A stretch of DNA of 36,917 nt, taken from a virus. The position numbers and the translations under genes were made by a program. Shown here in pieces: positions 3,943 through 29,318 of the stretch. The first letter of the stretch is position 1. Each line of letters starts with the position of its first letter. Location of the stretch: IMG/VR virus record IMGVR_UViG_3300045988_102538; one strand, written 5' to 3'. Below the pieces are notes generated by a model. The model searched no databases. It was not told where the DNA came from and worked only from the letters and a program-made list of their open reading frames with translations.

Positions 3943-4782
3943 ATGAACGAACCAACCAACGAATCCCAACCAACACAAACCAACCAAAACAATCCAGCGC
4001 TCGCCGGCATGTGCCAAGTGTGCGGCGGGGAGTGCCGTATTCAAGCCACGATGTGCGACAAGTGCGAGAACACTTTGAGGGGATGGATCCACGACTATCC
4101 CATCTGGATCCATGCCTTGCGCGAGTTTCTGGATTCGACGGCGCATTACGGAGGCCACCAGCCTGGACGTGTCAACCTGCCGTCCGCGCCCACGCCGATC
4201 AGACTCTCGGTCGTTGACCATCTGCAGGAGATCGAGGATGCGGTGACGGCGTTGTGGTGTCGATTGTATGCGCCGCCGGCCATGCCATGGGCCACAAGCA
4301 TCGCGGTCCCGCCAGTCGCTGACATGCTCAAGGCATGCTGGTCTTGCCAGCGGTTGAACCGACTGCCGGACATTGGTTTGATTTGGCATGACTGGCAGCG
4401 GTTGGTGCGCAAGACGCTGGGCATCATCGACGTGCCGCCATCCAGGCATGGTATCGGCAGGTGCCTGAATCCTCTGTGCGGCGTGGAGCTGAGTGCGGAG
4501 GTCGGCGCGGTGAACGTTGCCTGTCCTGTGTGCGGCAACACTTACCGTGTGGCGGATGTGCGGTTGGGGTTCCTGATGGAATGCGTTCGGTCGGGACGCG
4601 CGTTCACGGCGGGGGAGTGCGCGGAACTGCTGCGCGAATGCGGGTTCCAGTGCAGCGTGAACACGATCTACTCGTGGCGCAAGCGCGGCAGGATCCAACC
4701 GGCCGGCAGAAACGAGAAGGGACAGCCGCTGTACCGTCTGTCCGACGTCCACGCGCGCCTCGCCCGGCATGACGTGATTTGA
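3943..4782 (+). CDS. Zn-ribbon + C-terminal HTH DNA-binding protein at the Q position (candidate late-gene regulator)
   Basis: GGAGGG RBS. Contains CQVCGGEC...CDKC and CLNPLC...CPVCG ribbons and a C-terminal excisionase/MerR-like HTH (SVNTIYSWRKRGRI). It is the last early gene before a promoter/terminator pair and the late genes. Confidence 0.55.
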   Translation: MNEPTNESQPTQTNQNNPALAGMCQVCGGECRIQATMCDKCENTLRGWIHDYPIWIHALREFLDSTAHYGGHQPGRVNLPSAPTPIRLSVVDHLQEIEDAVTALWCRLYAPPAMPWATSIAVPPVADMLKACWSCQRLNRLPDIGLIWHDWQRLVRKTLGIIDVPPSRHGIGRCLNPLCGVELSAEVGAVNVACPVCGNTYRVADVRLGFLMECVRSGRAFTAGECAELLRECGFQCSVNTIYSWRKRGRIQPAGRNEKGQPLYRLSDVHARLARHDVI

Positions 4783-4807
4783 CATTTTTCAAAGTGCAAG
4801 GCAGAAT
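4779..4807 (+). promoter_or_regulatory. Sigma-70-like promoter TTGACA-17-CAGAAT
   Basis: TTGACA at 4779-4784 overlaps the upstream stop codon. A 17-nt spacer precedes CAGAAT at 4802-4807. Confidence 0.45.
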
Positions 4808-4820
4808 TGTCAGTGGATTA

Positions 4821-4855
4821 AAGGGTTCAAACCGGAAAACGGTTTGAACCCTTTT
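4821..4855 (+). terminator. Intrinsic terminator (14-bp perfect stem, 5-nt loop, T-run)
   Basis: aagggttcaaaccg-gaaaa-cggtttgaaccctt followed by tt(c). Confidence 0.7.
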
Positions 4856-5023
4856 CATATCCGCCATGGATTCTCCTAACTCCTTGGGTTGCAGTCCCGT
4901 CCTGTCCGAACGGCATATCGGACACGCTCCGCCCACTCACGTCAGAGTGGGCATACCCCAACAGTGGCAGGCAAGCCAATCCCGCGCTTACGTGATGCGG
5001 TGAAGCTCAAATCGCCTGTCCAT

Positions 5024-5125
5024 GCCTTCGTAGGAATCAGTGGTAGATCGTACCGGCCGCGAGTCTTTATTAGATCTCTTCCTTGCGGCCGCGTGTGGAC
5101 GCGGGTTCGAATCCCGCCGAAGGCA
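5024..5125 (+). ncRNA. tRNA-like element 1 (acceptor + D-like + T arm, oversized central hairpin)
   Basis: GCCTTCG-TA ... GCGGG-TTCGAAT-CCCGC-CGAAGGC-A gives a perfect 7-bp acceptor and a canonical T-loop. The D-like arm is AATC-AGTGGTA-GAT. There is no canonical anticodon arm; a 7-bp GC stem (5054-5060/5085-5091) takes its place. Confidence 0.3.
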
Positions 5126-5143
5126 CCCATGAAACAAACCCGG

Positions 5144-5236
5144 GGTAGGGGTATTGACAATCCGGTAGGGGTATTCGCAGATGATGGGGAGCCCCTACAA
5201 GACACGGGAGTGTCCATATACGGGAGCCCCTATACC
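5144..5236 (+). promoter_or_regulatory. Repeat cluster upstream of the packaging genes (cos/terminase recognition or late-promoter activator sites)
   Basis: GGTAGGGGTATT occurs at 5144 and 5164 (20-bp spacing) and brackets a TTGACA at 5154. Inverted relatives GGGAGCCCCTA(C/T)A occur at 5187 and 5222. Confidence 0.4.
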
Positions 5237-5315
5237 GGCATTCCAGCAAGCCAACGGCGAAGATAGTCGTCGGCAAATCCACGGCACCCCTGGGCTCATA
5301 CACGTGGGAGGCCAC

Positions 5316-5645
5316 ATGAGCAAGCGGCGCAACGAGCGCGTCAGCAACGGCTGGCGGCGCAGACAGCTCAGGGCAAGAGTGCTGGCCGCATACGACGTGT
5401 GCGCCATCTGCGGCAAGCCGGTCGACAAGACATTGAAGACACCACATCCGATGAGCGCCGAAGTCGACGAGCTCATACCAGTCTCACGCGGTGGTGATCC
5501 ATACAGCTTCACGAACTGCAGGCTCACGCACCGCAGATGCAACAGGATGAAGAGCGACAAGACAGACGAACACGCACGAGCGCTGCTGGCTGGCAGACAG
5601 GAAGTGAAAGCAAGCTCGATGCCGTTCAAAACGTTCGGCATCTGA
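5316..5645 (+). CDS. HNH endonuclease (terminase-associated type)
   Basis: GGGAGG RBS. Contains CAICG ... DELIPVSRGGDPYSFTNCRLTHRRCNRMKSDK and lies immediately upstream of TerS/TerL. Confidence 0.85.
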   Translation: MSKRRNERVSNGWRRRQLRARVLAAYDVCAICGKPVDKTLKTPHPMSAEVDELIPVSRGGDPYSFTNCRLTHRRCNRMKSDKTDEHARALLAGRQEVKASSMPFKTFGI

Positions 5646-5778
5646 CTCCGATACCAGGGCGGGGACCCCGGGTACACCCCCTACCGGTCGCCTCGGGTGC
5701 AGTGCCGATTTCTCCCCGCGGATTCAAACGTCGGAAACAGGGGAAACAACGAAAGGTCGGAAAGCGAGGATTACGCCG

Positions 5779-6207
5779 ATGAAGTGCGAACTCTGCGGCA
5801 AGGAATTCCAGCCTTCCGGCCACGGGCGGCCGCAACGGTACTGCTCCAAATCCTGCCGCCAGAAAGCCGATTATCGTCGGAAAAAGAACAGGCCCGCACA
5901 GGACCGGAACAGTAAGCCACCCGTCAAAGCCGTGGAAACGAAACAGAAGCCGGAGCAGGACCTCGACCAGCGGAGCTTCGAACGGATGATGGACGGCAGC
6001 ATGCTGGACATACTGCGAGACAACCGTGACCTGCTGCTCAAGGCCATGGCCGATCCCACGACGCCGGCGAACGCACTACCCGCGATCAGCCGCCAGCTCA
6101 TCGCCGTATGCGACCGCATCGAATCACTCCAGGTCGGTGGCCTGACCGACCTGCTGGACGATGAGGAAGACGAGGTGACGGACGATGTCGGAGCGTCGAT
6201 TGTCTGA
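5779..6207 (+). CDS. terS: Terminase small subunit
   Basis: N-terminal CELCG...RYCSKSCR Zn-ribbon, basic linker and acidic tail. The gene overlaps the TerL start. Confidence 0.65.
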   Translation: MKCELCGKEFQPSGHGRPQRYCSKSCRQKADYRRKKNRPAQDRNSKPPVKAVETKQKPEQDLDQRSFERMMDGSMLDILRDNRDLLLKAMADPTTPANALPAISRQLIAVCDRIESLQVGGLTDLLDDEEDEVTDDVGASIV

Positions 6208-7618
6208 AATCGCCAAGGTCCTCCGCCAGCCGGAAGGCATCGTCGGCAGCGAGTTCACGCGAATCAACAAAGCCGCGCGCAAGGCCGGCATCCGTTTCGA
6301 CTTGTGGCAGCAGGGCTTCTTGTGGCTTCTGTTCGCCAAGAACACGGAAGGCAAGTACGCTTGTGGCGCGGACGGCGCCGTGCTGTCCAGCTGCAGGCAG
6401 ATCGGCAAGACCTTCACCGTCGGCACCGCGTTGTTCCTCAAGGCGATACTCACACCGAACCTGAAAGCCATCTGGACCGCCCACCACACGCGCACCAGCG
6501 ACGAGACATTCGCGGACATGTGCGAGATGGAACACAATCCAGTGCTCGGCAGGTACGTGGAACGCATCCGCAGAGCAAACGGCCAACAGGAGATCACGTT
6601 CACATCAGGCAGCCGCATCATGTTCGGCGCCCGCGAAAACGGTTTCGGCCGAGGATTGCACAGCGTGGACGTGGCCGTTTTCGACGAAGCGCAGATCCTC
6701 ACCGTCCGCGCGATGGACAACATGATCCCCGTCCTGAACACGAGCCCGAACCCGTTGGTCGTGTACATGGGCAATCCACCCAAGCCAGGAGACCAGTGCG
6801 AGGCGTTCACGGAGAAGCGCATGCACGCGCTGAACCATGACGGGAACCTCCTCTACGTGGAGCTTGCCGCCGACAAGGACGCGGATCCGGACGACCGCGA
6901 ACAGTGGGCTAAAGCGAATCCCAGCTATCCGAGACGTACCAGTGAACAGGCAATCATACGCATGCGCAACAACCTGTCCGACGATTCGTTCCGCCGTGAG
7001 GCGCTCGGCATCTGGGATGAGACTGTCACCGCATACGCCATCGACCCCGACCAGTGGAAGGCCGCGGCCGTCGATGACGTGCCCGAAGGCGGCACGGTGA
7101 GCTTCGGCCTCGACATGCCGCCCGACAGGAGCGTGCTGACCATCGGCGCCGCATTGCGGTACAAGGACGGAACGGCCGTCATCCAGATGGCGAACATCAA
7201 GGACGCACGGCAGGCGGGAACCATGTGGGCCGTGGACTGGCTCGCCGAACGCTGGCACAAGACCGCCAGCGTGGTCATCGACGCGCAGTCGCCGGCCATG
7301 AGCCTGCTGCCCGACCTGAAGGCCGCACACGTGAAGGTCACCGTGACGAACATGCAGGAGATGGGCCGCGCATGCGGCCGATTCCTCGACATGCTCAAAG
7401 CCGGAACGCTCAAGCATCCGCGGGACGAATACCAGCCGCAGCTGGCCGCAGCAGTCAAGGGCGCTACCACGCGTCCATTGGGACAGTCCGGCGCGATCGC
7501 ATGGAACAAGCTCGGCTCGGATATCGACATAACCCCGCTCGTATCCACCACACTCGCCCTGTACGGGGCGTTCACCACGAAACGACATCCGGGAAGACGA
7601 CAGGAGGTGATGGTCTGA
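6185..7618 (+). CDS. terL: Terminase large subunit
   Basis: 477 aa with a Walker-A-like CRQIGKTF. Positioned between TerS and the portal gene. Confidence 0.85.
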   Translation: MSERRLSEIAKVLRQPEGIVGSEFTRINKAARKAGIRFDLWQQGFLWLLFAKNTEGKYACGADGAVLSSCRQIGKTFTVGTALFLKAILTPNLKAIWTAHHTRTSDETFADMCEMEHNPVLGRYVERIRRANGQQEITFTSGSRIMFGARENGFGRGLHSVDVAVFDEAQILTVRAMDNMIPVLNTSPNPLVVYMGNPPKPGDQCEAFTEKRMHALNHDGNLLYVELAADKDADPDDREQWAKANPSYPRRTSEQAIIRMRNNLSDDSFRREALGIWDETVTAYAIDPDQWKAAAVDDVPEGGTVSFGLDMPPDRSVLTIGAALRYKDGTAVIQMANIKDARQAGTMWAVDWLAERWHKTASVVIDAQSPAMSLLPDLKAAHVKVTVTNMQEMGRACGRFLDMLKAGTLKHPRDEYQPQLAAAVKGATTRPLGQSGAIAWNKLGSDIDITPLVSTTLALYGAFTTKRHPGRRQEVMV

Positions 7619-10425: not shown

Positions 10426-10507
10426 GGTGGATTGCCGGAGCAGACGAACGGACCCGACTGTAAATCGGGCGCATTTTGCCACGCGGGTGCGAATCCCGCA
10501 TCCACCA
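10426..10507 (+). tRNA. tRNA-Tyr (anticodon GTA), class II with 13-nt variable arm; no encoded CCA
   Basis: Hand fold: acceptor GGTGGAT/ATCCACC, D stem CCG/CGG, anticodon arm CCCGA-CTGTAAA-TCGGG, variable arm CGCATTTTGCCAC, T arm GCGGG-TGCGAAT-CCCGC, discriminator A. Confidence 0.8.
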
Positions 10508-10623
10508 CTCAACCGGCCCTCCGGCCGGCGGCGACCATGCGCCGCATCGCGTGGGAGGACCATACGGCGCACCGTGGCGCGGTCGAACTCGAATCCACGG
10601 GAAACAGCAAGAAGGAGCACGAC

Positions 10624-17984: not shown

Positions 17985-18798
17985 ATACGTGTGCGCCGCC
18001 ACAGGTGAGCGCATCGGCTTCGAGGGGCCGCTGTACGGCGAGACGCTCACGGGACTGCGAGCCCGCGTCTGGGACTACAGCCTCGCCTCACGTGGCATGA
18101 CGGGCATCACCCGCAAGGCACGCGAGGCGACAGTCACCGTGAAGATCCACGATTCTCCGGCCACGCTCGACCTACTGCGCCGCCTCGCGGACGCCGACAT
18201 GGCATCCGGGAACCCGGGCACGCTCGTGGCCGACGGCGAATGGGAAGCCAAAGCGTGGATCACGAAAAGCGAACCGCAATCCATCACGCCCACGATGGTC
18301 GAGACGCAGTTGACCATCGTGCTGGCCGATGGCGTGTGGCGCCGTCCGACCATGACGCATTTCACGCCGCGATACGATTCCGGAACCGCCGACCTTGACT
18401 ATCCATATGATTATCCGCATGATTTCGCCGGCATGGCATTGGGTGCCGAGATCGTCAACGACACGTCCATCCCGCAGCCGGTCAAGCTCACGATATTCGG
18501 ACCATGCGCGCAACCGTACGTCATCATCGGAAACAACCGGTACGAGGTCGACGTGACCGTGCCATCCGGCTCGCGTCTGGAAATCGACGGCACCGGCGAT
18601 GTCAGGACCGTCACCATGGTCAGCGGCACAGGTCTCGTCACAAACTGCTTCGCGCAGGCCGTGCGAGGGTCGGGCAAGGATTCCGGCCGGTACGTGTTCC
18701 AACCGCTCGCGCCCGGAACACAGCCGATCAGCTGGCCGGGAGGATTCCAATTCGACTTGACGGTCTGCGAGGAAAGGAGCGAACCGCCATGGACCTGA
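17971..18798 (+). CDS. Distal tail protein (Dit)
   Basis: GTG start with an AGGAAGG RBS, overlapping the tape measure gene's end. 275 aa. Confidence 0.7.
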
Positions 18799-20528
18799 TC
18801 GTCACCGACGCCACAGGCAAACCCGTGGCGAGCCACGCCTCATACACGCTCGACCTCGCGTTCGGTAGCGGGGAGAACGACTTCGACCTGCAGGTCGAAG
18901 ACGCCGCGCTCAAGGCGGGGAGCCGCATCATGATCGACGGCACCGAGTACGGCGGCATCATCGACGACACGGATGTCGACGTGGACGGAGGCCTGTCCAC
19001 CGTCACATGGCATGGCCGCGACTGGCATGGAGTGCTCGCCTCGAAGATCATCGAACCGGACAGGAACAACGATTACCTCACCCTGTCCGGCACGATTCCC
19101 GTCATTATGCGCACGCTCGTCAGCCGTGCGGGATTGCAAGGCCTGTTCACCGTCACCGACGAAAGCGCCGACCACAAGACCACCTGCCAGTTCGACCGGT
19201 ACGTGGACCTGTACAGCGGTCTGGTCAAGATGCTCAGGGCAAGCGGACTCAAACTCCGGTTGCGTAATGACGGCGACAAGGTATCCATGAGCGCCATGCC
19301 CGTCCGCACGATCGGCGACAGCATCGACTCGGACCTCATCGACTTCACCGCCAAACAGGCGGCGCACCCGATCAACCATCTCATCTGCCTGGGCAAGGGC
19401 GAACTCAAGGACCGTACCGTCATCCACTGGTACGCCGACGCGAACGGCACGTTCAGCCACACGCAGACCCTCAAAGGCCTTGACGAACGCACCGCCACAT
19501 ACGAGTTGTCCAACGCCGAAGCCGACGAGCTCGAGGACAAGGGCAGGCAGAAATTCCAGGAGCTTCGGAACACTAGCACCATCGACGTGGACATTCCCGA
19601 CGGCATCGACGCGGACGTTGGCGACCTGGTCACGGGTCGTGACAACAACACGGGCCTCGTCGTCACTGCCGAGATCTCCAAGAAGATCGTCAAGGTTTCG
19701 GGAGGCGTGCTCACCGTCACCTACGAATCCGGAGGTGCCAGCGCCGGCGGCAACAGCGGAGAATCCTCCATCGGGGATGGTGGCCACGCCTACTACGCTG
19801 GAGCCGGCCTCAAACTCGACGCCTGGACGTTCAGCGCCGACGTGACCAGAAACGACATCGACTCGCTCAACAACGCATTGTCGGGTAAACAGCCGAAAGG
19901 CGACTACATCACCGGCCTGAAAATCGGTTCGGTGGACACGCTCGCCCCCGGTGCACAGGCAAGCGCGTCGCTTACGGGCGCCGGCAGCGACAAAACCTTG
20001 AATTTGGGGCTTCCGAAAGGCGACCAGGGTCCGCAAGGGGAGAAGGGCGACAAGGGCGACGCAGGACCACAGGGGGCCACCGGAGCGACCGGACCCACCG
20101 GTCCTCGGGGAGAGAAAGGAGCGATCGGGGAGCGAGGGCCGCAAGGCGTCGCCGGTCCCGAAGGCCCGCAGGGACTGCAGGGGATACGCGGCGAGAAAGG
20201 CGATAAGGGTGATGCCGGCGCGATCGGCGCGGCGGGACCGCAAGGCCCGACGGGTTCCACAGGTCCGCAGGGTCCCACGGGTCCACAGGGAGCGACCGGC
20301 CCCCAGGGCAGACAAGGCATCCAAGGTTCCCAAGGCATCCAGGGCCCGCAAGGGGAGAAGGGTGACAAGGGCGACAGCGGCGTATCCGCCCCCTCGAACG
20401 GCTTCTTCACGCTCAGCATGGAAGGCGACGGCGACCTGTACGTGAACTATCCGGACAACACGAACCCACCCTCGTTCGTCTGGGACTCCGAGAGCGGGAA
20501 CCTGTACGTGGACATCCCGGAAAGGTGA
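18789..20528 (+). CDS. Tail-associated (Tal-like) protein with C-terminal collagen-like Gly-X-Y domain
   Basis: Internal ATG ([12 protein letters not shown]...) overlaps the Dit stop. An uninterrupted G-X-Y run spans about 20019-20382. Confidence 0.7.
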
Positions 20529-20531
20529 CAC

Positions 20532-21371
20532 ATGGCGCGACTATTGATCGGCAACATCAAAGGCCCCAAAGGTGACAAGGGCGATACCGGGGCCACCGGC
20601 CCGCAAGGCAAGCAAGGAGCGCAGGGCGTTCAGGGAGCTAAAGGCGACGTCGGCCTTCCGGCGCTCGTGATGAAGAAATCCCTCGTCGGCGAATATCCGG
20701 TGGGATCCACTTTCACGGGGAACGTGAGCGAATGGTTGAACCGAACACCACTCGCCAACGAATATTCGACCGCATTGTCAGGTGGCGGAAAATACAGCAT
20801 CGTCTGGCAGTGCGTTTCACAGTCCGGCAGCCTATTCACGGGAAAGACGATTTCCCGTCAATCCATCATCGGAACGCAAGGCCCTGCCGGACCGCAAGGT
20901 CCAAAAGGTGACGTCGGCCCACAAGGCGTGAAGGGCGATACCGGCGAGACCGGGCCTAAAGGAGCCACTGGAGCTGCCGGCCCTACCGGCCCGCAAGGTC
21001 CTGAAGGGCTGAAAGGTGACAAGGGTGATAAAGGCGATGTCGGACCCGCCGGAGAAGGAGGCCCTACCGGCCCGCAAGGTCCGAAAGGCGACACCGGCCC
21101 TGCCGGACCTACCGGAGCAACAGGCCCCACCGGGCCGCAAGGCAAGCAGGGAATACAAGGTGCGCAGGGACTGCAGGGCCCACAGGGACCGACAGGACCG
21201 CAGGGTGCCAGCGGCGTGACGGCGCCAACTTCCGGATTCTTCACACTGCAGGTCGACCCGAACGGAGACCTGTACGCCGTGTACGCGGATACGACCACCG
21301 CGTCGGCGGCTCCCGTCTCCTACGATCCGGCGACGGGCGACCTGTACTACATGATCAATGACGGAAAGTAA
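20532..21371 (+). CDS. Collagen-like tail fibre protein
   Basis: Two G-X-Y blocks. The N-terminus [20 protein letters not shown] and the C-terminal [14 protein letters not shown] motif are shared with neighbouring genes. Confidence 0.8.
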
Positions 21372-21380
21372 GGAGCGCAT

Positions 21381-21947
21381 ATGACGAAGATTCTGCTCGG
21401 CAACGTCAAAGGACCCAAGGGCGACACCGGACCGCAAGGCAAGCAGGGAGTGCAAGGACCGCAAGGCCCGACCGGGGCCACCGGAGCGACCGGCGCCACC
21501 GGGGCGAAGGGTCCAACGGGAGCCACTGGGCCACGAGGACTGAGCCTACGGAAATTCAATGGCGACATCAACGGTTCGGGTGCGGGCGGAGAAGTGAGAA
21601 AAATTGCCCTATCTGGTATTCAGCCAAATGGAAACCTGCAGGTCGGAGACACCATTTTTGACCAATATCAAGGCACAGATGGTCTTGAACTTGGGTTCTG
21701 GCAGGTCACCGCCATCAACGGTAGCGATGTGACTGTCAAAGGCGTCGGTAGCTACGTCGTGCACAAAGGGCCGAAGGGTGACAAGGGAGACAACGGCATG
21801 AGCGTGAGCCAGGCATTCATCGCCGCCCACCCCGTGGGCTCCCTTTACTGGACCACTTCCACGGCCAATCCGGGAACAACCTACGGAGGCACTTGGAAGG
21901 AATGCGGCACGACGCTTCCGGGACACATCTACCAGCGCACAGCCTGA
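21381..21947 (+). CDS. Collagen-like tail fibre protein with globular C-terminus
   Basis: [26 protein letters not shown] followed by G-X-Y repeats. Confidence 0.8.
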
Positions 21948-21964
21948 AAGAGAAAGGAACATCA

Positions 21965-22207
21965 ATGGCACGAACCACGAACATCACCAGATACACCTGC
22001 GACCGATGCCACGCCTCCGCATACCTCGCCGACGGTGACCCACGCACCTCCAGCGACTGGCACGACATCACCCACACCACCGTCGACGGAGTCGCACAGG
22101 GCGCGCTCGTCTGTACCGCATGCTGGCAGACGTTCAAAGCGCTGGCAGCCACGCAGGACGCCGCCTACGCCGCATACCTCAACAACACAACAGATAGGAA
22201 GGAATGA
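21965..22207 (+). CDS. Hypothetical Zn-ribbon protein (80 aa)
   Basis: Contains CDRC ... CTAC. Internal ATG of track ORF 21893..22207. Confidence 0.45.
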   Translation: MARTTNITRYTCDRCHASAYLADGDPRTSSDWHDITHTTVDGVAQGALVCTACWQTFKALAATQDAAYAAYLNNTTDRKE

Positions 22208-23007
22208 CCATGACCATGAATCTCATCACCGGCAAGGCCGGCGCTCCGCACATCACATCCAGCGACCAAGGAGCCATGCAGGCCGGACTGGTCGGAAACG
22301 GCAACTACCTGCTGCAAGGCGGCGACGGCAAATTCCCCGCCGTGACCATGCAGTCAGCAAACAAGGCGCTCGTCCCGGTCCTCAACCTTGTGATCGAAGG
22401 ACGATACGCACGCGTCACCGCGGCGGAAACCGTCACCATCGAAAGCGGAGTCACAGGACGGAACCGCAACGACCTAATCTGCGTGAAATACACGCGAGAC
22501 TCGAACAACATCGAAACGATCGCGCTCGCGGTGCTGAAGGGCACCGCCACCAGTGGCACGGCGGCTGACCCCACGGTACCGTCGGGTAGTATCCTGAACA
22601 ATTCCGGCACCGTATGGATTCCGATCGCCCGTATCCCGATCAGTGGCATCACCGCCGGAACTCCTGTCATGCTTGTCAAGCAGTTGCCTCCGATGAGCCA
22701 ACTGTGGGATTCCGTAACCCAGCCATGGAAACCTCCATACACGAACAGCAGACTCACTCTATGTCGCGTCGGACGCATCGTCACGATCAACGGCAACGTC
22801 AAGTTCGACGGCAGTGGACAGCAGAACTACTCGACGGCGAATGAGACCATCCCAGAAGCGTTCCGTCCGCTCGCCGACCAGAGCATCATATCGTTCCCGT
22901 CCTGCGGTTTCAGCCTGCTTGTCATGCGTGATGGGAAGGTGCAGATGCTTGGCGACCCGAAATCCGCTTACTCCACGGCGCACGGCTGTTGGATGGCACT
23001 GCAATAG
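22204..23007 (+). CDS. Tail receptor-binding protein: constant N-terminus (codons 1-169) + currently expressed variable cassette A
   Basis: Last tail gene, with an ATGA overlap upstream. Recombination site S0 lies in-frame at 22704-22720 (…LWD-SVT-QPW…). The stop codon is the TAG of site S1. Confidence 0.8.
   Translation: MTMTMNLITGKAGAPHITSSDQGAMQAGLVGNGNYLLQGGDGKFPAVTMQSANKALVPVLNLVIEGRYARVTAAETVTIESGVTGRNRNDLICVKYTRDSNNIETIALAVLKGTATSGTAADPTVPSGSILNNSGTVWIPIARIPISGITAGTPVMLVKQLPPMSQLWDSVTQPWKPPYTNSRLTLCRVGRIVTINGNVKFDGSGQQNYSTANETIPEAFRPLADQSIISFPSCGFSLLVMRDGKVQMLGDPKSAYSTAHGCWMALQ
22704..22720 (+). repeat. Shufflon site S0 (intragenic): GTGGGATTCCGTAACCC
   Basis: Shares the core TTCCGTAACCC(AG) with S1-S5; its left arm differs from theirs. 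Confidence 0.8.
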
Positions 23008-23020
23008 CTTTCCGTAACCC
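23004..23020 (+). repeat. Shufflon site S1: ATAGCTTTCCGTAACCC
   Basis: Exact 17-mer also at 23317 and 23581. Its TAG is the stop codon of the expressed RBP. Confidence 0.85.
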
Positions 23021-23316
23021 AGACTTTGATTAAATCACAGTATGGCACCGTGACCGGCGTGAAGTCTGGCAAGATCGCGCAGATTAGCATCAACTGGAAA
23101 AGCGCGAGCCCTGACTCGTGGGGCAGTGGACAGTTCGGTACAATTCCGGAGGGTTGGAGGCCTGCGGTCGTCACGCATGGCACGTGGTCGGGGCGTGATG
23201 GTGGCAGCCAGCGTGATTTCATTCTGGAAACGAATGGCAATTTCCGTTATGCCAATTGTGGCGCGGGGCAGAACAGCGGCACGTTCTCCGGGACGATGAC
23301 CTACATTCTCGCCTGA
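23008..23316 (+). other. Silent RBP C-terminal cassette B (102 codons, start-less)
   Basis: Open from the CTT of S1 (LSVT-QTLIKSQYGTVTG...) to TGA, in the same frame as the S1 SVT codons. Confidence 0.75.
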
Positions 23317-23333
23317 ATAGCTTTCCGTAACCC
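23317..23333 (+). repeat. Shufflon site S2: ATAGCTTTCCGTAACCC
   Basis: Exact repeat starting 1 nt after the cassette B stop codon. Confidence 0.85.
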
Positions 23334-23581
23334 TGCCGTTTGGGAAAAGCAATGGCAACGGAGGAATCTATCCAATCGGGAAAATACCCAATCCGAATGC
23401 GATTAAGGCTTTGAATGGCAGAGCCATACTATCGTCTGGGACGACAGTGGCGATTCCATTCATTCACCCGTCATATCTGCAGCGGTCAGTCCAAGTATCG
23501 ATCGCGCCGGACGGGACCGTCAACCTGCTCGTTGGTCCCGAGGTGGCTGTCACAGGCGGAATCGTGGAAATCCACTTTTAA
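23321..23581 (+). other. Silent RBP C-terminal cassette C (86 codons, start-less; absent from the ORF track)
   Basis: Hand translation LSVT-LPFGKSNGNGGIYPIGK...GGIVEIHF-TAA has no internal stop. Confidence 0.7.
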
Positions 23582-23597
23582 TAGCTTTCCGTAACCC
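23581..23597 (+). repeat. Shufflon site S3: ATAGCTTTCCGTAACCC
   Basis: Exact repeat overlapping the last base of the cassette C stop codon. Confidence 0.85.
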
Positions 23598-23923
23598 TCA
23601 CCAGATCGAACCAGAATTGGAACGTGAATTACCGTACCGCGCTGGTAGGCAAGCTGTTGATCGTCGCATTCCACGCAATCCGAGTCGGTAGCGACTGGAA
23701 TGCGGCGAAAGAATGGGAGACATCCCCGCTTTTCACACTCCCAGCCGGTTTGGAGGCGGCTTTCGAGGTGCATTGCGCCGCAGTATCCAATTCGAGCATC
23801 GGATTGCATGGCGTCGAAGTGCAGGTGGCGCAGCACACCATCGCCTTGCGTTCCTCGGGAAAGATGACAGTAAGCGCAAACGGGGGATGGGTTGAAGGCT
23901 GTATCACGGTGCCACTTGTCTAG
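23585..23923 (+). other. Silent RBP C-terminal cassette D (112 codons, start-less)
   Basis: LSVT-LTRSNQNWNVNYRTALVG... is continuous with track ORF 23624..23923. Confidence 0.75.
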
Positions 23924-24279
23924 GAGAACGTCACTCCACTAGGAATCGGCATGGAAAAACGCTGTATCAGGATGTTATCCCTGCCAACCCCGCCAAGTAA
24001 CGTAATACTGCCATCTGGATTCCAATTCGCTTGCTTGTTGTAGTGCGGATCCGCAAGACTTGATCCAACACATCCCAGTCCAATTGTGGCCGATGGACGT
24101 ATCCCTGACTGATATAACCAGACCCTATAGTTCGAGACTTCGACGGTTGATTTGAAAGAGCTCAAATCGACATACAGCATGTTGCCCTTGACGGTAATCG
24201 TGTTGGATCCACCATATAGGGCGCCAACAAACGATCCTGTGTCCTGAAACTTAAAGGTAGCAGTGAGGGCTACGGAAAG
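23920..24279 (-). other. Silent inverted RBP C-terminal cassette E (119 codons, start-less)
   Basis: The minus strand reads LSVA-LTATFKFQDTGSFVGALYGGSNTITVKGN- and is continuous with track ORF 23920..24180. Confidence 0.75.
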
Positions 24280-24283
24280 CTAG
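24267..24283 (-). repeat. Shufflon site S4 (inverted): CTAGCTTTCCGTAGCCC on the minus strand
   Basis: The plus strand reads gggctacggaaagctag. It has one core variant (A to G). Confidence 0.8.
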
Positions 24284-24286
24284 AAA

Positions 24287-24583
24287 TCATGGGATTGGGA
24301 AACAAAGCGTGCCGACGCAATCCTGATTGCTGCCAACGTTTCCCATGTTCGCCACTCGGATAGTTCCATCAGCTCTGGCCGTGAGGCTTCGCGCCGTTTG
24401 CCCATTTGATACAAGGCAGACAGTCGACAATTCAACGATGGGACGATACCAGGACGCGAGCTTTACCGGACATTCAACAGCATCCCAACTGCCCGAACCG
24501 ATTTTCCCACTGAACTTGATCAAAATCATCCTGCCGTTACGCATGATGATCCAATTGGAATCCTGGTACAGGGTTACGGAAAG
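24287..24583 (-). other. Silent inverted RBP C-terminal cassette F (98 codons, start-less)
   Basis: The minus strand reads LSVT-LYQDSNWII- and is continuous with track ORF 24287..24544. Confidence 0.75.
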
Positions 24584-24587
24584 CTAC
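24571..24587 (-). repeat. Shufflon site S5 (inverted): GTAGCTTTCCGTAACCC on the minus strand
   Basis: The plus strand reads gggttacggaaagctac. Its TAG is the recombinase stop codon. Confidence 0.85.
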
Positions 24588-25456
24588 GCGGCTCCGATGA
24601 TGAGTCTTTCCCATGCCCGCTGCAGACTTCTCAGCACGGACAAATCGGGGCGGAGATAGTAGCGGGCGGTTGTCTTGATGTCGCTGTGACCGAGTTGTCG
24701 TGCGACCACTGAGATATCGGCTCCCGCAGCGATTGCCAGAGTGCCGAAGGTGTGCCTGAGGTTCCTTGGCGGCACGCAGGGGAGTTTCATGCGTTGGCAC
24801 CATGACGTGTAATGAGCTGCCACCTGGTTGGCGTTCAGATCGCCGACCAGCCTGCCGGTTCTGCCGTGGCGCAATTGCGCGAGCCGTTTGACTGCGAACC
24901 GTGGTAGTGCGACCGTCCGTCGGCTCTGGTCGGTCTTCGGGTCGGTGACCGTTTCATGTCCAGCGACCCATTGCACTGACCTTTTGACGGTCACGGTTCC
25001 CCGGCGTAAATCCAAGTCGGCCCATTCAATGCCGACGGACTCGCATCGGCGCAGTCCCGCGCAGACGGAGACCAATAACCAGGCTTCCAACGCGTGACCG
25101 TAGAAGCCTTTGAGCAGCCGTCTTACCTGTCTGGCGTCGAGCACGCGCGGCTCATACCGCCGCAGGTGCGGCAGTCTGATTTCACGACGTGTCACGTCAT
25201 TGTCGGTGACTCCCTTGCGATAGGCGAGTCGGAGTATCGCCCGCAGCACGGCCCACGCCTTGCGCGCGGCGCCGGCCTGATTGAACGAGCCGAGCCACTC
25301 CTCGATGTCGTTCGCGGTGATCGACTCCATGTCGACGTCAGCCCATTTCGGCTGGATGTGGCAGCGGTAGGCCGACTCGTAGCCCACCCTCGTGCACTCG
25401 CGGAGCTTCCCGCAGGAGGGCCACCAGACCTCATTCACAAACGTTCCCAACAACAT
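24584..25456 (-). CDS. rin: Tyrosine recombinase, predicted shufflon invertase (Rci/Rin-like)
   Basis: Contains AGLRRCE, LRHTFGT and LGHSDIKTTARYY (R...HxxR...H...Y pattern). Start chosen at MLLGTFV with a GGAGGT RBS (track start 25564 is rejected). The gene abuts site S5. The symbol is by analogy only. Confidence 0.8.
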   Translation of the reverse strand: MLLGTFVNEVWWPSCGKLRECTRVGYESAYRCHIQPKWADVDMESITANDIEEWLGSFNQAGAARKAWAVLRAILRLAYRKGVTDNDVTRREIRLPHLRRYEPRVLDARQVRRLLKGFYGHALEAWLLVSVCAGLRRCESVGIEWADLDLRRGTVTVKRSVQWVAGHETVTDPKTDQSRRTVALPRFAVKRLAQLRHGRTGRLVGDLNANQVAAHYTSWCQRMKLPCVPPRNLRHTFGTLAIAAGADISVVARQLGHSDIKTTARYYLRPDLSVLRSLQRAWERLIIGAA

Positions 25457-25466
25457 TTCAACCTCC

Positions 25467-25520
25467 AAAATCCCACACGTGGTTATCGCGGCTTCCAACG
25501 GTAGCCACGTGTGGGATTTT
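25467..25520. promoter_or_regulatory. 16-bp perfect inverted repeat (AAAATCCCACACGTGG / CCACGTGTGGGATTTT, 22-nt spacer) between rin and the lysis genes
   Basis: Seen directly. It starts 1 nt from the rin RBS and has T-runs on both outer flanks. Confidence 0.6.
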
Positions 25521-25539
25521 CCTTTCGGAAGGATTCCCA

Positions 25540-25851
25540 ATGAGCCAGGAAACCATCGTCGCAATCGTTATCGCCATCATCGGCAGCGGAGGCAGCGGCG
25601 TGTTCGTCACCTGGATTCTGAGCAAGGTCGACCAACGTCACGATCCACTGCATGAGGGCGTCAGGGAACTGTTGTTCTGCAAACTCGAGGCTCTGCACCG
25701 TCAGATGGTCGATGCAGGTGGTGTTGCGAGCATTCCGTTGAAGCAAAGCGCGGAACGAATATATGCCGCTTACCACGGTCTGGGCGGCAATGGAACCGGA
25801 ACCTCGATGATCCAAGACATACGTGACGCGCATATCGCGAACACAGATTGA
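25540..25851 (+). CDS. Membrane protein (one N-terminal TM helix), possible holin / lysis accessory
   Basis: IVAIVIAIIGSGGSGVFVTWIL is a TM segment. Located directly upstream of the endolysin gene. Confidence 0.55.
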   Translation: MSQETIVAIVIAIIGSGGSGVFVTWILSKVDQRHDPLHEGVRELLFCKLEALHRQMVDAGGVASIPLKQSAERIYAAYHGLGGNGTGTSMIQDIRDAHIANTD

Positions 25852-25917
25852 AAGATTCAAAAGATTTCCACACCGTCCGTACAAGGCGGACGGTACGGAC
25901 AAAGGAAAGGAGAGGAA

Positions 25918-27881: not shown

Positions 27882-29162
27882 CTAGACGGTCTTCAACTGT
27901 TCAGCGCGCAGCTCGCCAATCGCGTCCGCCACATCGTCCAATCGTTCCGGCCAGAGAGCCGTGTATGTGTTCAGCGTGATGCTGGGTGAGGAGTGGCCGA
28001 GCTGCATCTGTAGGGTCTTCACGTCCGCGCCTTGAGCAATTGCAAAGCTCGCATAGCTATGCCTCAAACTATGGATGGTCACGCCCTCGTCCTCCATGCC
28101 GGCCAGTCGGACGGCCTTTCGCCAGACACGCGTCCGCCACGTGTTCGTCCACAGGTTCCCGCCTCTTGCCGCGCGGAACAGCCAGTCGTCGTCGCCCATG
28201 CCCTCCATCTGCCGTTCGATGGACGGTATGAGGAATCTGGGTATGGCGATGCTGCGCGGTTTGCCGTTCTTCGGCGTGCCCAGCACAAGCCTGCCTTTGC
28301 CGTCGTCGGTCCAAGTGCGGCGGATGCGCGCCCTGCGTGAATCCACATCCACGTCGCCGCATTTGAGTGCCAGCGTCTCGCCAATGCGGGCACCGGTGTA
28401 TGCCTGCCAGCGGACGATCAGCCCGTCTACCGGCCGTCCTGCCCGTTCGGCCATGCCGGCCAGCAACTCCACCTCCTCGACGGTAAGGAACACCATGTCG
28501 TCATCGGATTGCGTGATGCGCGGCACGGTGACCTTTTCAATGGGGTTCTCGCCAATCCAGCCGTGCTCCAAAGCGAATTCCATGACACCGCCCATGACGA
28601 CCTTGACGATGTTGCGGATGCTGCGTGGACTCAATGGCTTCGATTCGCGATCGTCCTGCAGTTCGGCGGGATACCCGCCTTCGGTGAGCTGCGTGACCCA
28701 CTGTTGCAGTTCGTCGCGTTGGATTTCCCTCAGTGTGCGATCGCCCCACTTGGGGTTGATATAAACGCGCAATTCGCGGCGGTATCTGCCCAAAGTGCCC
28801 TGTTTGATATCCATCTTGCCGTCCGTCCATTCGGAGGCAACGTCCCGGAAGATGCGTAGTTCCTGCTGCGGGTCGCGGTATTTGCCGCGTCTGATGTCGT
28901 CCTCGATGGCCGCTGCGTATTCCTCAGCGTCACGGAGCTTGGCGAAGTTCCGTGATTTCTGGACGCGTTTGCCGTCTCGAAGCGTGTACCAGCGGCATCT
29001 CCACCGTGAGCCTTGGCCGTACAGCGCGGACCGCCATTTGTCGGGCACATTGGCTTTCATCGGATCCTTCGCATTGGCCAGCGACTGTTTCGCGGCCCTG
29101 CTGGGCGGGTTGCCGTCCTCGTCGTTTTTGAGCCATCTGTCGTCTACGAACGCTCTGGCCAT
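27882..29162 (-). CDS. int: Tyrosine integrase
   Basis: 426 aa from MARAFVDDRW. Contains YTGARIGE, HSLRHSYAS and LGHSSPSITLNTY. Adjacent to attP. Confidence 0.9.
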   Translation of the reverse strand: MARAFVDDRWLKNDEDGNPPSRAAKQSLANAKDPMKANVPDKWRSALYGQGSRWRCRWYTLRDGKRVQKSRNFAKLRDAEEYAAAIEDDIRRGKYRDPQQELRIFRDVASEWTDGKMDIKQGTLGRYRRELRVYINPKWGDRTLREIQRDELQQWVTQLTEGGYPAELQDDRESKPLSPRSIRNIVKVVMGGVMEFALEHGWIGENPIEKVTVPRITQSDDDMVFLTVEEVELLAGMAERAGRPVDGLIVRWQAYTGARIGETLALKCGDVDVDSRRARIRRTWTDDGKGRLVLGTPKNGKPRSIAIPRFLIPSIERQMEGMGDDDWLFRAARGGNLWTNTWRTRVWRKAVRLAGMEDEGVTIHSLRHSYASFAIAQGADVKTLQMQLGHSSPSITLNTYTALWPERLDDVADAIGELRAEQLKTV

Positions 29163-29318
29163 GGTCGTCTCTTTCCAAGGATCCGCGCTACACTGTGCGT
29201 GGAACCTCATTTTGGTGAAAACGGAAATGCTGATTGTTGGTTCCTTGGGTTCCGTCCGACTGTGTTCGGGCGGAACCCTTTTTGTTTCCCGTCGCGGTAT
29301 GTGGACGCTGAGCTTCTT

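What the first reader, a model, noticed from the sequence alone, without database searches (positions are those of the whole stretch)
23008..24583. Five silent, start-less RBP tip cassettes packed end to end; one is invisible to ORF calling
Reading from the CTT after each site's TAG gives uninterrupted frames for five cassettes. They are B (23008-23316, 102 aa), C (23321-23581, 86 aa), D (23585-23923, 112 aa), E (24279-23920 minus strand, 119 aa) and F (24583-24287 minus strand, 98 aa). None has an RBS or start codon at its 5' end. C has no internal start long enough to appear in the supplied ORF track. The gaps between one cassette's stop codon and the next site are 0-3 nt. D and E converge and share their stop codons in the palindrome CTAG (23920-23923). 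The tips share only loose motifs: a G-[KR]-I/L-x-x-I strand and IPEAFRP / IPEGWRP / LASWYRP-like segments in A, B and F. They therefore look like diverged homologues rather than recent duplicates. E and F are visibly more AT-rich, which suggests separate acquisition.
Basis: seen in the sequence. Interest (0 to 1): 0.7.

Follow-up and report, generated by a model that had tools for sequence, protein, structure and literature searches.

The report
Rin shufflon receptor-binding tip cassettes
These five start-less reading frames are spare "tips" for a Bifidobacterium phage's receptor-binding tail protein, swapped onto a constant front half by a neighbouring DNA-inverting enzyme; this is the Rin shufflon, described in 2018, so it is a clean example of a known system and not a new one.

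Summary
All five frames (B, C, D on +, E, F on -) are open from the CTT after an in-frame TAG, with the stated lengths. Each follows a copy of TTCCGTAACCC: six copies in the window against 0.37 expected. A sixth copy lies inside the expressed 267-aa tail gene after codon 168. A 290-aa XerD-like tyrosine recombinase abuts the array.

This matches the published Rin shufflon of Bifidobacterium prophages (Mavrich 2018, PMC6109161): constant 168-aa Rc, 95-100-aa Rv cassettes, 11-bp rix sites, armless tyrosine invertase.

Natural variation supports shuffling:
- A 98%-identical phage has Rc fused to B.
- 24 complete related loci show 24 different arrangements.
- Every cassette family (A-F) occurs fused to Rc in viral contigs or protein databases.
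- Many metagenome contigs break at the expressed site.

Linkage analysis places the crossover inside TTCCGTA.

A, B and F tips are mutually related and match the TP901-1 RBP head domain (E=0.001). C, D and E have no detectable relatives among the tips. AlphaFold models failed, so their folds are untested.

E is clearly AT-richer; so are C and F, more mildly.

Verdict: real, correctly interpreted, already described as a kind. It is a new member in the B. adolescentis lineage with six cassettes.

The parts
22204..22709 (+). Rc: constant N-terminal part of the receptor-binding protein (168 codons to Trp168, plus the start of Asp169). Most database homologues start at the third Met (MTMNLI...).
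   Evidence: 98-100% conserved in 165 viral contigs. Matches PHROG 13141/9994, plus weak hits to PHROGs annotated tail protein. Equals the published 168-residue Rc.
22710..22720 (+). rix site S0 (TTCCGTAACCC) inside the expressed gene. Its left flank is TGGGA, and it encodes (D)SVT.
   Evidence: The linkage switch lies between positions -1 and +8. Ten metagenome contigs end exactly at 22720-equivalent.
22721..23007 (+). Tip A, currently expressed as Rc-A (267 aa). Its stop codon TAG (23005-23007) is the TAG of site S1.
   Evidence: The A family is expressed in 19 and silent in 18 related sites.
23005..23020 (+). rix site S1 with silent-type left flank (TAGCT + TTCCGTAACCC).
23008..23316 (+). 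Silent tip cassette B (102 codons including the never-expressed first Leu).
   Evidence: Fused to Rc at 98% identity in OY725605.1, in 13 viral contigs and in P0079, a cluster of 1883 sequences. TP901-1-type head by profile.
23318..23333 (+). rix site S2 (TAGCT + core).
23321..23581 (+). Silent tip cassette C (86 codons). It has no start codon before codon 31.
   Evidence: Rc-C fusions occur in 3 viral contigs. P0121 and P0123 are 100% identical, named B. adolescentis. pN/pS is 0.10.
23582..23597 (+). rix site S3 (TAGCT + core).
23585..23923 (+). Silent tip cassette D (112 codons). It lies tail to tail with E, with no site between them.
   Evidence: Rc-D fusions include P0074 (99% identical) and 18 others, plus 6 viral contigs.
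23920..24279 (-). Silent tip cassette E (119 codons), the AT-richest. It shares CTAG stops with D.
   Evidence: Rc-E fusion P0104 is 97% identical, a cluster of 322 sequences named B. adolescentis and B. pseudocatenulatum. E-type domains sit on other scaffolds.
24267..24282 (-). rix site S4, a variant core TTCCGTAGCCC with TAGCT flank.
   Evidence: The G travels with E and is kept in expressed copies, which read SVA.
24287..24583 (-). Silent tip cassette F (98 codons).
   Evidence: Rc-F fusions include P0060-P0062 at 96-98% identity, plus 7 viral contigs. Related to A and B.
24571..24586 (-). rix site S5 (TAGCT + core). Its TAG is the stop codon of rin.
24584..25456 (-). rin: a 290-aa tyrosine recombinase of XerC/XerD-like two-domain build, without an arm-binding domain. 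It is the presumed invertase.
   Evidence: Pfam PF00589 3e-15 and PF14659. XerD 1a0p 6e-11, with R...RxxR...H...Y aligned. The exact sequence is on at least 1000 contigs, named B. adolescentis and B. catenulatum.

Best explanation
The region is the variable part of a Rin-type shufflon in a temperate Bifidobacterium siphophage (the B. adolescentis / catenulatum group lineage).

One tail gene is expressed. It consists of a constant 168-codon N-terminus (Rc) followed by an 11-bp rix site (TTCCGTAACCC, encoding Ser-Val-Thr) and one ~95-115-codon C-terminal tip. Five further tips lie downstream without promoter, ribosome-binding site or start codon. Each is preceded by the same site and capped 5' by an in-frame TAG.

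The adjacent armless tyrosine recombinase (rin) presumably recombines oppositely oriented rix sites, exchanging strands within the invariant TTCCGTA. This inverts the DNA between the sites and places a different tip in frame behind Rc. From the arrangement in the window, E or F is reached in one inversion and B, C or D in two. D and E sit tail to tail with no site between them, so they form the single 'hinge' segment that every such array must contain.

The result is a phage population that carries alternative receptor-binding heads, and so, by inference, alternative host or receptor specificities.

Shown here: the anatomy, the in-frame fusions of every tip to Rc in nature, the rearrangements among near-identical phages, and the crossover interval.

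Inferred: that Rin is the catalyst, that inversion rather than another process made the rearrangements, and that the tips change host range.
For: Anatomy. There are six rix cores against 0.37 expected, and all frames are open from the site. The recombinase abuts the last site and its stop codon is that site's TAG.

Published match. The Rin shufflon has Rc = 168 residues, Rv = 95-100 residues, 11-bp asymmetric rix sites and a tyrosine invertase lacking the arm domain. Inversions were seen in prophage and virion reads (PMC6109161).

Shuffling in nature:
- OY725605.1, 98% identical, has Rc-B, with A and C inverted.
- 24 complete loci with rin 96-100% identical show 24 different cassette orders, each with all '>' cassettes before all '<' cassettes.
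- The seven arrangements that use the same six cassettes all belong to the 240 states reachable by inversion alone.
- Tips are found in the expressed position as A 19, B 13, C 3, D 6, E 2, F 7.
- Independent protein clusters exist for Rc-A, -B, -D, -E and -F and for Rc-C.
- 33 of about 82 contigs stop within 130 nt after the expressed site, 10 of them exactly at its last base.

Crossover. Positions -1 and upstream co-vary with the upstream context. Positions +8 and downstream co-vary with the tip. Positions +1 to +7 are invariant in 203 sites. The G variant of E's site stays with E when expressed.

Coding. pN/pS is 0.1-0.6 for all five cassettes, and 0.42 for E upstream of its first possible start codon.

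RBP identity. The A/B/F-type tip profile hits only the TP901-1 receptor-binding protein head (4ios, 4hem, 3u6x, 3ejc, 4v96, 2f0c; E 0.001-0.003). The locus lies between tail-fibre and lysis genes.
Against: - No read-level data for this particular window show inversion. All evidence for activity is comparative.
- Rin catalysis and host-range change have not been tested experimentally here. The 2018 paper also calls the system putative.
- Tips C, D and E have no detectable similarity to a known RBP head.
- Both AlphaFold runs gave unusable models, with pLDDT 34 and 35. Their fold is therefore untested.
- Related loci carry from 3 to 7 cassettes, so deletions or replacements also occur, not inversion only.
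Confidence: 0.93

Rival explanations
1. The five frames are ordinary small genes translated from internal start codons. Gene callers annotate them this way, as 'hypothetical proteins' in OY725605.1 and phage PMBT6.
For: Prodigal-type annotation calls truncated ORFs inside the cassettes. In-frame GTG/TTG/ATG codons exist at codons 7-34.
Against: - The reading frames stay open back to the rix site. In E, the part upstream of the first start shows pN/pS 0.42.
- There is no promoter excess, and no start at the 5' ends.
- Each cassette is found as an in-frame C-terminus of Rc in many independent contigs and protein clusters.
- C would be only 56 aa.
Confidence: 0.02
2. The cassettes are inert relics of past duplications, a frozen shufflon. 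The array in this window no longer switches.
For: Nothing in the window itself shows activity. A relative, phage PMBT6, has three co-oriented cassettes and only a degenerate inverted site next to rin, which looks frozen. E's site carries a mismatch.
Against: - rin is intact, with catalytic R, R, H and Y aligned.
- All six sites keep the invariant TTCCGTA.
- All cassettes are intact here and in more than 200 copies elsewhere.
- Near-identical phages differ almost only by rearrangement.
- Assemblies break at the site.
- The variant E site is found recombined to Rc.
Confidence: 0.03
3. Tips are exchanged by general homologous recombination or gene conversion at the short repeats, or by horizontal replacement between co-infecting phages, and not by Rin-catalysed site-specific inversion.
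For: Cassette content differs between relatives: families X1-X7, and 3 to 7 cassettes per locus. The same E-type tip sits on unrelated N-termini, as in P0137 and P0139. So horizontal exchange does happen on longer time scales.
Against: - A 16-bp repeat is very short for RecA-type recombination.
- The junctions are confined to a 7-bp interval.
- Orientation rules are obeyed in all 24 loci.
- A dedicated recombinase is always adjacent.
- Read-level inversions at rix were reported for the B. breve member.
Confidence: 0.02

Closest known systems
Rin shufflon of Bifidobacterium breve / B. longum dnaJ2-integrated prophages Bb423phi1, Bl157phi1 and Bl30698phi1 (Mavrich et al. 2018, Sci Rep 8:12772, PMC6109161). 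Also reported in Eggerthella lenta clade 1 prophages (PMC8778435).
   Same: - Constant Rc of 168 residues.
- Rv tips of about 95-100 residues or more.
- An 11-bp asymmetric rix site upstream of each Rv and one inside the expressed gene.
- An armless tyrosine invertase flanking the array.
- Position between tail and lysis genes.
- Tips dissimilar to each other, several with TP901-1 RBP-head similarity.
   Different: - The host lineage is B. adolescentis, catenulatum and pseudocatenulatum by database names, which the paper does not mention.
- The rix core is TTCCGTAACCC (junction Ser-Val-Thr). The printed sequence is TTCCCTAACCC (Ser-Leu-Thr), which does occur in related locus L053.
- There are six cassettes here and up to seven in relatives, with at least 13 tip families in the sample. 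The paper describes five full-length alleles.
- The dnaJ2 att core is not in the window.
R64 / IncI plasmid shufflon (Rci tyrosine recombinase, sfx sites, PilV C-terminal segments).
   Same: - Multiple-inversion system driven by a tyrosine recombinase.
- A constant N-terminus fused to alternative C-terminal segments.
- Asymmetric sites with one conserved and one variable arm around a short crossover core.
- Preference for inversion over deletion (PMC11850598 and its references to Gyohda 2002 and 2006).
   Different: - R64 acts on a conjugative pilus adhesin, not a phage tail protein.
- No sequence relationship between the sites was shown.
- Rin scores only as a generic XerC/D-like recombinase.
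- Whether site asymmetry also blocks deletion here is untested.
Min (p15B), Cin (P1) and Gin (Mu) tail-fibre inversion systems.
   Same: Phage-encoded DNA inversion that swaps the C-terminal, receptor-recognising part of a tail fibre. Min is a multi-segment shufflon.
   Different: Those systems use serine invertases with an enhancer and Fis, and act in Gram-negative myophage-type fibres. Here the enzyme is a tyrosine recombinase and the target is a siphophage baseplate RBP.
Lactococcus phage TP901-1 receptor-binding protein (BPP / ORF49; PDB 2F0C, 4IOS, 4HEM, 3U6X, 3EJC, 4V96).
   Same: The profile of A/B/F-type tips aligns over 85 residues with the TP901-1 head domain, including the xPxxFxP motif, at E=0.001-0.003. 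These are the only PDB hits.
   Different: Similarity is remote and was shown for the A/B/F class only. The TP901-1 RBP is a single fixed gene with no cassettes.

Membership tests
Rin shufflon (Mavrich 2018) | An expressed tail/RBP gene whose constant N-terminal part (Rc, 168 residues) ends at an internal rix site. | tested here: met
   The core at 22710-22720 follows codon 168 of the 267-aa gene. The paper gives 168 residues.
Rin shufflon (Mavrich 2018) | Several start-less Rv cassettes of roughly 95-100 codons, each preceded by the short asymmetric rix repeat, in both orientations. | tested here: met
   There are five silent cassettes of 86-119 codons, three on + and two on -, each behind TAGCT+TTCCGTA(A/G)CCC. 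The core differs at one base from the printed TTCCCTAACCC.
Rin shufflon (Mavrich 2018) | An adjacent tyrosine-family recombinase lacking the N-terminal arm-binding domain, distinct from the prophage integrase. | tested here: met
   The protein is 290 aa, carries PF14659 and PF00589, and has XerD-like length and alignment. A separate 442-aa integrase lies at 27882-29210.
Rin shufflon (Mavrich 2018) | Inversions at rix sites that create alternative full-length Rc-Rv genes. | tested here: met
   Shown comparatively: Rc-B in a 98%-identical phage, 24 arrangements in 24 loci, all six tips found fused to Rc, and the crossover confined to TTCCGTA. Not tested at read level for this window.
Rin shufflon (Mavrich 2018) | Direct sequence orthology of Rc and Rin to those of Bb423phi1. 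| not testable with these tools
   The B. breve 139W4-23 sequences could not be fetched. Indirect support comes from the same Rc length, and from related loci and proteins (L053, P0057) that carry the published SLT-type junction.
TP901-1-type RBP head domain | Sequence or structure similarity of the tip to the TP901-1 BPP head. | tested here: inconclusive
   Met for the A/B/F class at E=0.001. No signal for C, and only weak hints for D and E. AlphaFold models were unusable.
Serine-invertase tail-fibre switches (Gin/Cin/Min) | A serine recombinase (resolvase/invertase domain) as catalyst. | tested here: not met
   The only recombinase at the locus is of the tyrosine family.
R64-type shufflon (Rci/sfx) | An Rci-family recombinase and sfx-type sites (7-bp core plus a conserved 12-bp arm). 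| tested here: inconclusive
   The logic is the same: a 7-bp invariant crossover stretch, a conserved tip-side arm, and a variable other arm. Rin matches only generic Xer-like models, below every curated cut-off. No Rci comparison was run.

The most novel reading that the evidence does not exclude
This B. adolescentis-lineage Rin shufflon may be larger and more active in the human gut than the described examples. It has six to seven cassettes per phage, drawn from a shared pool of at least 13 tip families, some of which are also found on unrelated tail-protein scaffolds.

Its natural variation already defines the chemistry:
- Strand exchange lies within the 7-bp TTCCGTA.
- The tip-side arm (ACCC) is conserved.
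- The other arm is near-symmetric only at the expressed site (TGGGA...ACCCA).
- At silent sites that arm is degenerate and doubles as an in-frame stop (TAG versus Rc's TGG).

Such arm asymmetry could be what biases Rin toward inversion over deletion, as in R64. That would answer the directionality question left open in 2018.
Probability: 0.4. Interest if true: 0.4.

Novelty: new member of a known kind. Interest (0 to 1): 0.25.

Why it matters
It shows that a raw-sequence reader can correctly recognise a shufflon's silent cassettes, including one that ORF callers miss. Public annotations still label these pieces 'hypothetical protein' and the invertase 'integrase'.

Biologically, this prophage is very common in human gut bifidobacteria: the exact Rin sequence is on at least 1000 contigs. 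Its receptor-binding tip repertoire and switching are therefore relevant to phage-host dynamics of B. adolescentis-group species. They also matter for metagenome assembly, because contigs break at the site.

None of this changes the known concept.

Tried and rejected
- **AlphaFold2, natural Rc-E fusion** (P0104, 11-sequence alignment): mean pLDDT 33.8.
- **AlphaFold2, E tip alone** (15 sequences, 30-99% identity): mean pLDDT 35.3. Both models are unusable, so no fold search was run.
- **PDB sequence searches.** The full-length Rc-tip profile gave only a chance hit at E=0.31. The E-type tip profile gave nothing.
- **Pfam on the five tips:** nothing. Pfam on the expressed protein: nothing.
- **Protein search with the C tip:** only 7 proteins, too few for a useful alignment.
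- **Profile search with E-type tips:** only 23 proteins.
- **dnaJ2 attachment core from the 2018 paper:** not present in the window with up to 3 mismatches. The integration site of this phage was not established.
- **Promoter and terminator scan of 21800-25900:** no excess over shuffles.
- **Independent small genes:** considered and rejected. See the first rival explanation.
- **Similarity of the palindrome upstream of rin to the Rc flank of S0:** treated as unproven, because 14/16 matches are expected by chance at this search size.
Full report
**1. The observation**

Re-translation confirms all five frames and their lengths:
- B 23008-23316 (+, 102 aa)
- C 23321-23581 (+, 86 aa)
- D 23585-23923 (+, 112 aa)
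- E 24279-23920 (-, 119 aa)
- F 24583-24287 (-, 98 aa)

Each starts CTT TCC GTA (A/G)CC, immediately after an in-frame TAG.

The shared 11-mer TTCCGTAACCC, allowing one mismatch, occurs six times in the window. All six lie between 22710 and 24581, against 0.37 expected from shuffles. Four copies are on the + strand (22710, 23010, 23323, 23587). Two are on the - strand (24267-24277, which is the variant TTCCGTAGCCC, and 24571-24581).

The first copy lies inside the expressed 267-aa gene at 22204-23007, directly after codon 168.

None of the cassettes has a start codon at its 5' end. The first in-frame candidates are at codons 7, 31, 14, 34 and 14. Promoter-like sites are not enriched. C's longest start-to-stop ORF is 56 aa, so a 60-aa ORF track does miss it.

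The D/E stop overlap in CTAG (23920-23923) is real.

Minor corrections:
- F's stop lies 4 nt from the next TAG.
- A's stop codon is itself the TAG of the next site.
- The stop codon of the recombinase gene is the TAG of the last site.

**2. What surrounds it**

Upstream lie a tape-measure-sized ORF, minor tail ORFs and two collagen-repeat fibre proteins. Downstream of the array, on the minus strand and abutting the last site, is a 290-aa tyrosine recombinase (24584-25456). It carries Pfam PF00589 and the SAM-like N-domain.

It aligns with XerD (1a0p, E 6e-11) through the catalytic Arg, the RxxR-H box and the LGHS...Y box. It reaches no curated NCBIfam cut-off.

A holin-region gene, a GH25/LysM endolysin and a separate 442-aa integrase follow. 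The window is therefore most of a temperate siphophage genome. Database names for identical proteins point to Bifidobacterium adolescentis, B. catenulatum and B. pseudocatenulatum.

**3. Identity with a published system**

Mavrich et al. [quoted passage not shown] Its features are:
- a constant RBP N-terminus (Rc) of 168 residues;
- variable C-terminal Rv genes of 95-100 residues;
- an 11-bp asymmetric rix site upstream of each Rv and inside the full-length gene;
- a flanking tyrosine invertase (rin) that lacks the arm-binding domain.

Read-level inversions were seen in prophage and virion DNA. The same system was later noted in Eggerthella lenta prophages (PMC8778435).

The window has every one of these features. 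The only differences are the host lineage, one base in the core, and cassette number. The core here is TTCCGTAACCC, giving Ser-Val-Thr. The printed core is TTCCCTAACCC, giving Ser-Leu-Thr, and that variant does occur in a related locus, L053. The window has six tips, against five full-length alleles in the paper.

**4. Evidence that the cassettes are used**

- A phage record 98% identical over the flanks (OY725605.1) has Rc joined to B exactly at the site, with A and C inverted downstream.
- A scan of viral contigs found 165 Rc relatives. The 80 fetched, plus three genome loci, gave 238 sites whose downstream tips cluster into families A-F and X1-X7.
- Each family of the window occurs both silent (TAG-capped) and in the expressed position behind Rc. 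Expressed counts are A 19, B 13, C 3, D 6, E 2, F 7.
- The protein database independently holds full-length Rc-A, Rc-B (P0079, 97%), Rc-D (P0074, 99%), Rc-E (P0104, 97%, 322 members) and Rc-F (P0062, 98%). It also holds partial Rc-C proteins 100% identical to the window's C (P0121, P0123).
- Twenty-four loci that include a rin 96-100% identical to the window's show 24 different cassette orders.
- Of about 82 contigs, 33 end within 130 nt after the expressed site, ten of them exactly at the last base of the core. This is the expected signature of an assembly graph that branches there.
- Tip alleles show pN/pS of 0.1-0.6. For E the value is 0.42 in the stretch upstream of its first possible start codon. 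The frames are therefore under coding constraint from the site onward.

**5. Mechanism**

A simple model was run in which any two oppositely oriented sites can recombine and invert what lies between them. It reaches 240 arrangements from the one in the window.
- E or F becomes expressed after one inversion.
- B, C or D becomes expressed after two.
- All seven observed arrangements of the same six cassettes are among the reachable states.

In every observed locus all '>' cassettes precede all '<' cassettes. One tail-to-tail pair sits at the turning point, with no site between its members. In this lineage that pair is usually D/E, with the CTAG overlap conserved in 22 of 22 cases. D and E are therefore one invertible segment with two faces.

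Across 203 sites, nucleotides at -1 and upstream co-vary with the upstream context (fraction of entropy explained 0.85-1.0). Nucleotides from +8 onward co-vary with the tip (0.66-0.90). Positions +1 to +7 (TTCCGTA) never vary. Strand exchange therefore lies within those 7 bp.

In agreement, the G at core position 8 of E's site stays with E in expressed copies, where the junction reads Ser-Val-Ala.

The expressed site is nearly symmetric (TGGGA TTCCGTA ACCCA). Silent sites carry TAGCT on the left. Their in-frame TAG is a one-base variant of Rc's TGG (Trp168).

The silent cassettes' first codon (CTT) is never expressed, because the Rc side supplies GAT.

Three steps are inference by analogy and from the 2018 data, and were not tested here:
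- that Rin catalyses the exchange;
- that the asymmetric arms bias it toward inversion, as shown for R64 sfx sites (Gyohda 2002 and 2006, cited in PMC11850598);
- that the tips change host specificity.

**6. Are the tips homologous, and are they RBP heads?**

Profile-profile comparison relates A, B and F, along with X2, X5, X6 and X7. Probabilities are 91-93% for A-F and B-F. The direct A-B comparison gives only 39%.

A joint profile of this class hits only the TP901-1 receptor-binding protein head domain in the PDB (4ios, 4hem, 3u6x, 3ejc, 4v96, 2f0c; E 0.001-0.003). This agrees with the HHpred result of the 2018 paper.

C has no detectable relative among the tips. D and E give only weak colinear alignments to the A/B/F profile, at 20% and 15%.

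Two AlphaFold runs failed (pLDDT 34 and 35). The fold of C, D and E is therefore undetermined.

An exhaustive HMMER search with E found 45 representative clusters. They fall into three groups:
- Some sit on Rc-like N-termini at 35-39% identity that keep the W-D-S-[VL]-[ST]-Q junction.
- Others sit on unrelated N-termini. P0139 carries the same tip as P0137.
- One forms the end of an 896-aa protein (P0159) with weak, sub-threshold Pfam hits to collagen-repeat and BppU-like models.

**7. Composition**

| Segment | GC (GC3) |
|---|---|
| E | 0.487 (0.52) |
| F | 0.517 (0.58) |
| C | 0.531 (0.58) |
| D | 0.565 (0.66) |
| B | 0.569 (0.68) |
| A | 0.576 (0.72) |
| Rc | 0.603 (0.76) |
| window | 0.598 |

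The window-type E allele has GC3 0.53 and carries the variant site. Sibling E' alleles in the same slot have GC3 0.68 and the canonical site. This fits replacement of E by an allele from a lower-GC source. No donor was identified.

**8. Verdict**

It is the Rv cassette array of a Rin shufflon, a system published in 2018. The window is a new member from the B. adolescentis-group lineage, with six cassettes.

- the large natural-variation evidence;
- the 7-bp crossover interval;
- the TAG/TGG relation of silent and expressed left arms;
- the hinge explanation for the D/E pair;
- the modular spread of E-type tips.

Interest is modest.

Noticed in passing
window 25467-25520: A 22-nt inverted repeat (91% complementary, 10-nt loop) lies between the start of rin and the divergent gene at 25540. 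Its arms (CCACGTGTGGGATTTT) resemble the Rc-side flank of the expressed rix site (CCAACTGTGGGATT, 14/16) (families D7, I1, I11). It could be a terminator, an operator or a Rin-binding site. The resemblance is within chance for this search size.
   Followed up: no
window 24584-25456 (-): Rin aligns to XerD with Arg in place of the first His of the HxxR box (PRNLRH against PHVLRH). The other catalytic positions (R, R, H, Y) are kept.
   Followed up: partly
L085 (Bifidobacterium phage PMBT6, MK932884.1) 4501-5518: An isolated B. thermophilum phage has Rc at 78% identity and three co-oriented cassettes behind identical TTCCGTAACCC cores. The only inverted site, next to rin, is degenerate (TTCCGTAATCA) and has a 26-codon remnant. 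This looks like a frozen or decaying shufflon. The record annotates the pieces as hypothetical proteins and an integrase.
   Followed up: partly
related loci L012, L071 (X1/A pairs) and L001, L057, L069 (X1/E pairs): Some tail-to-tail pairs are separated by 85-128 nt that contain a decayed site, for example TAGTCTTCCGTACCCAC with one base missing. This suggests that hinge pairs can arise by loss of a rix site. X3/E and X1/B pairs have 4-nt overlapping stops (CTAG, TTAA) like D/E.
   Followed up: partly
protein P0122 (ENA contig, 26.8 kb): This ORF runs antisense through F and continues in frame into C across a junction ...CAGGGT|TTCCGTA|ACCCTG... That is a site whose left arm is the mirror of its right arm, with two cassettes head to head. 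It is either an aberrant recombination product or an assembly chimera. The crossover core is quasi-palindromic: TTCCGTAA against its reverse complement TTACGGAA matches at 6 of 8 positions.
   Followed up: no
protein P0031 (JGI contig, 36 kb): A full-length Rc protein whose tip begins like C (first ~19 residues) and continues as A. It is a possible intra-cassette recombinant or an assembly chimera.
   Followed up: no
proteins P0135, P0137, P0139, P0161: Distant RBPs (35-39% identical Rc-like N-termini, or unrelated N-termini) keep the motif W-[DV]-S-[VL]-[ST]-Q exactly at the boundary before an E-type tip. The junction peptide encoded by rix therefore seems conserved well beyond this phage lineage, perhaps marking further shufflons.
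   Followed up: no
window 18504-21947: Three consecutive tail proteins carry collagen-like Gly-X-Y repeats: the C-terminal third of the 674-aa ORF, then 20532-21371 and 21381-21947. The last has a weak Gp10_C baseplate hit.
   Followed up: no
window 10426-10508: A tRNA-Tyr (GTA) gene sits within the phage structural and packaging region.
   Followed up: no
related loci: Loci with nearly identical rin carry from 3 to 7 cassettes. Content therefore changes by deletion or replacement as well as by inversion. Whether the deletions arose by Rin acting on direct sites is unknown.
   Followed up: no
L004 (Candidatus Onthocola MAG) 5001-6877: The most distant Rc relative found (39% identity) is a 183-aa protein without a tip, followed by a separate 437-aa protein and with no rix-like sites. 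The Rc module therefore also exists outside shufflons.
   Followed up: partly
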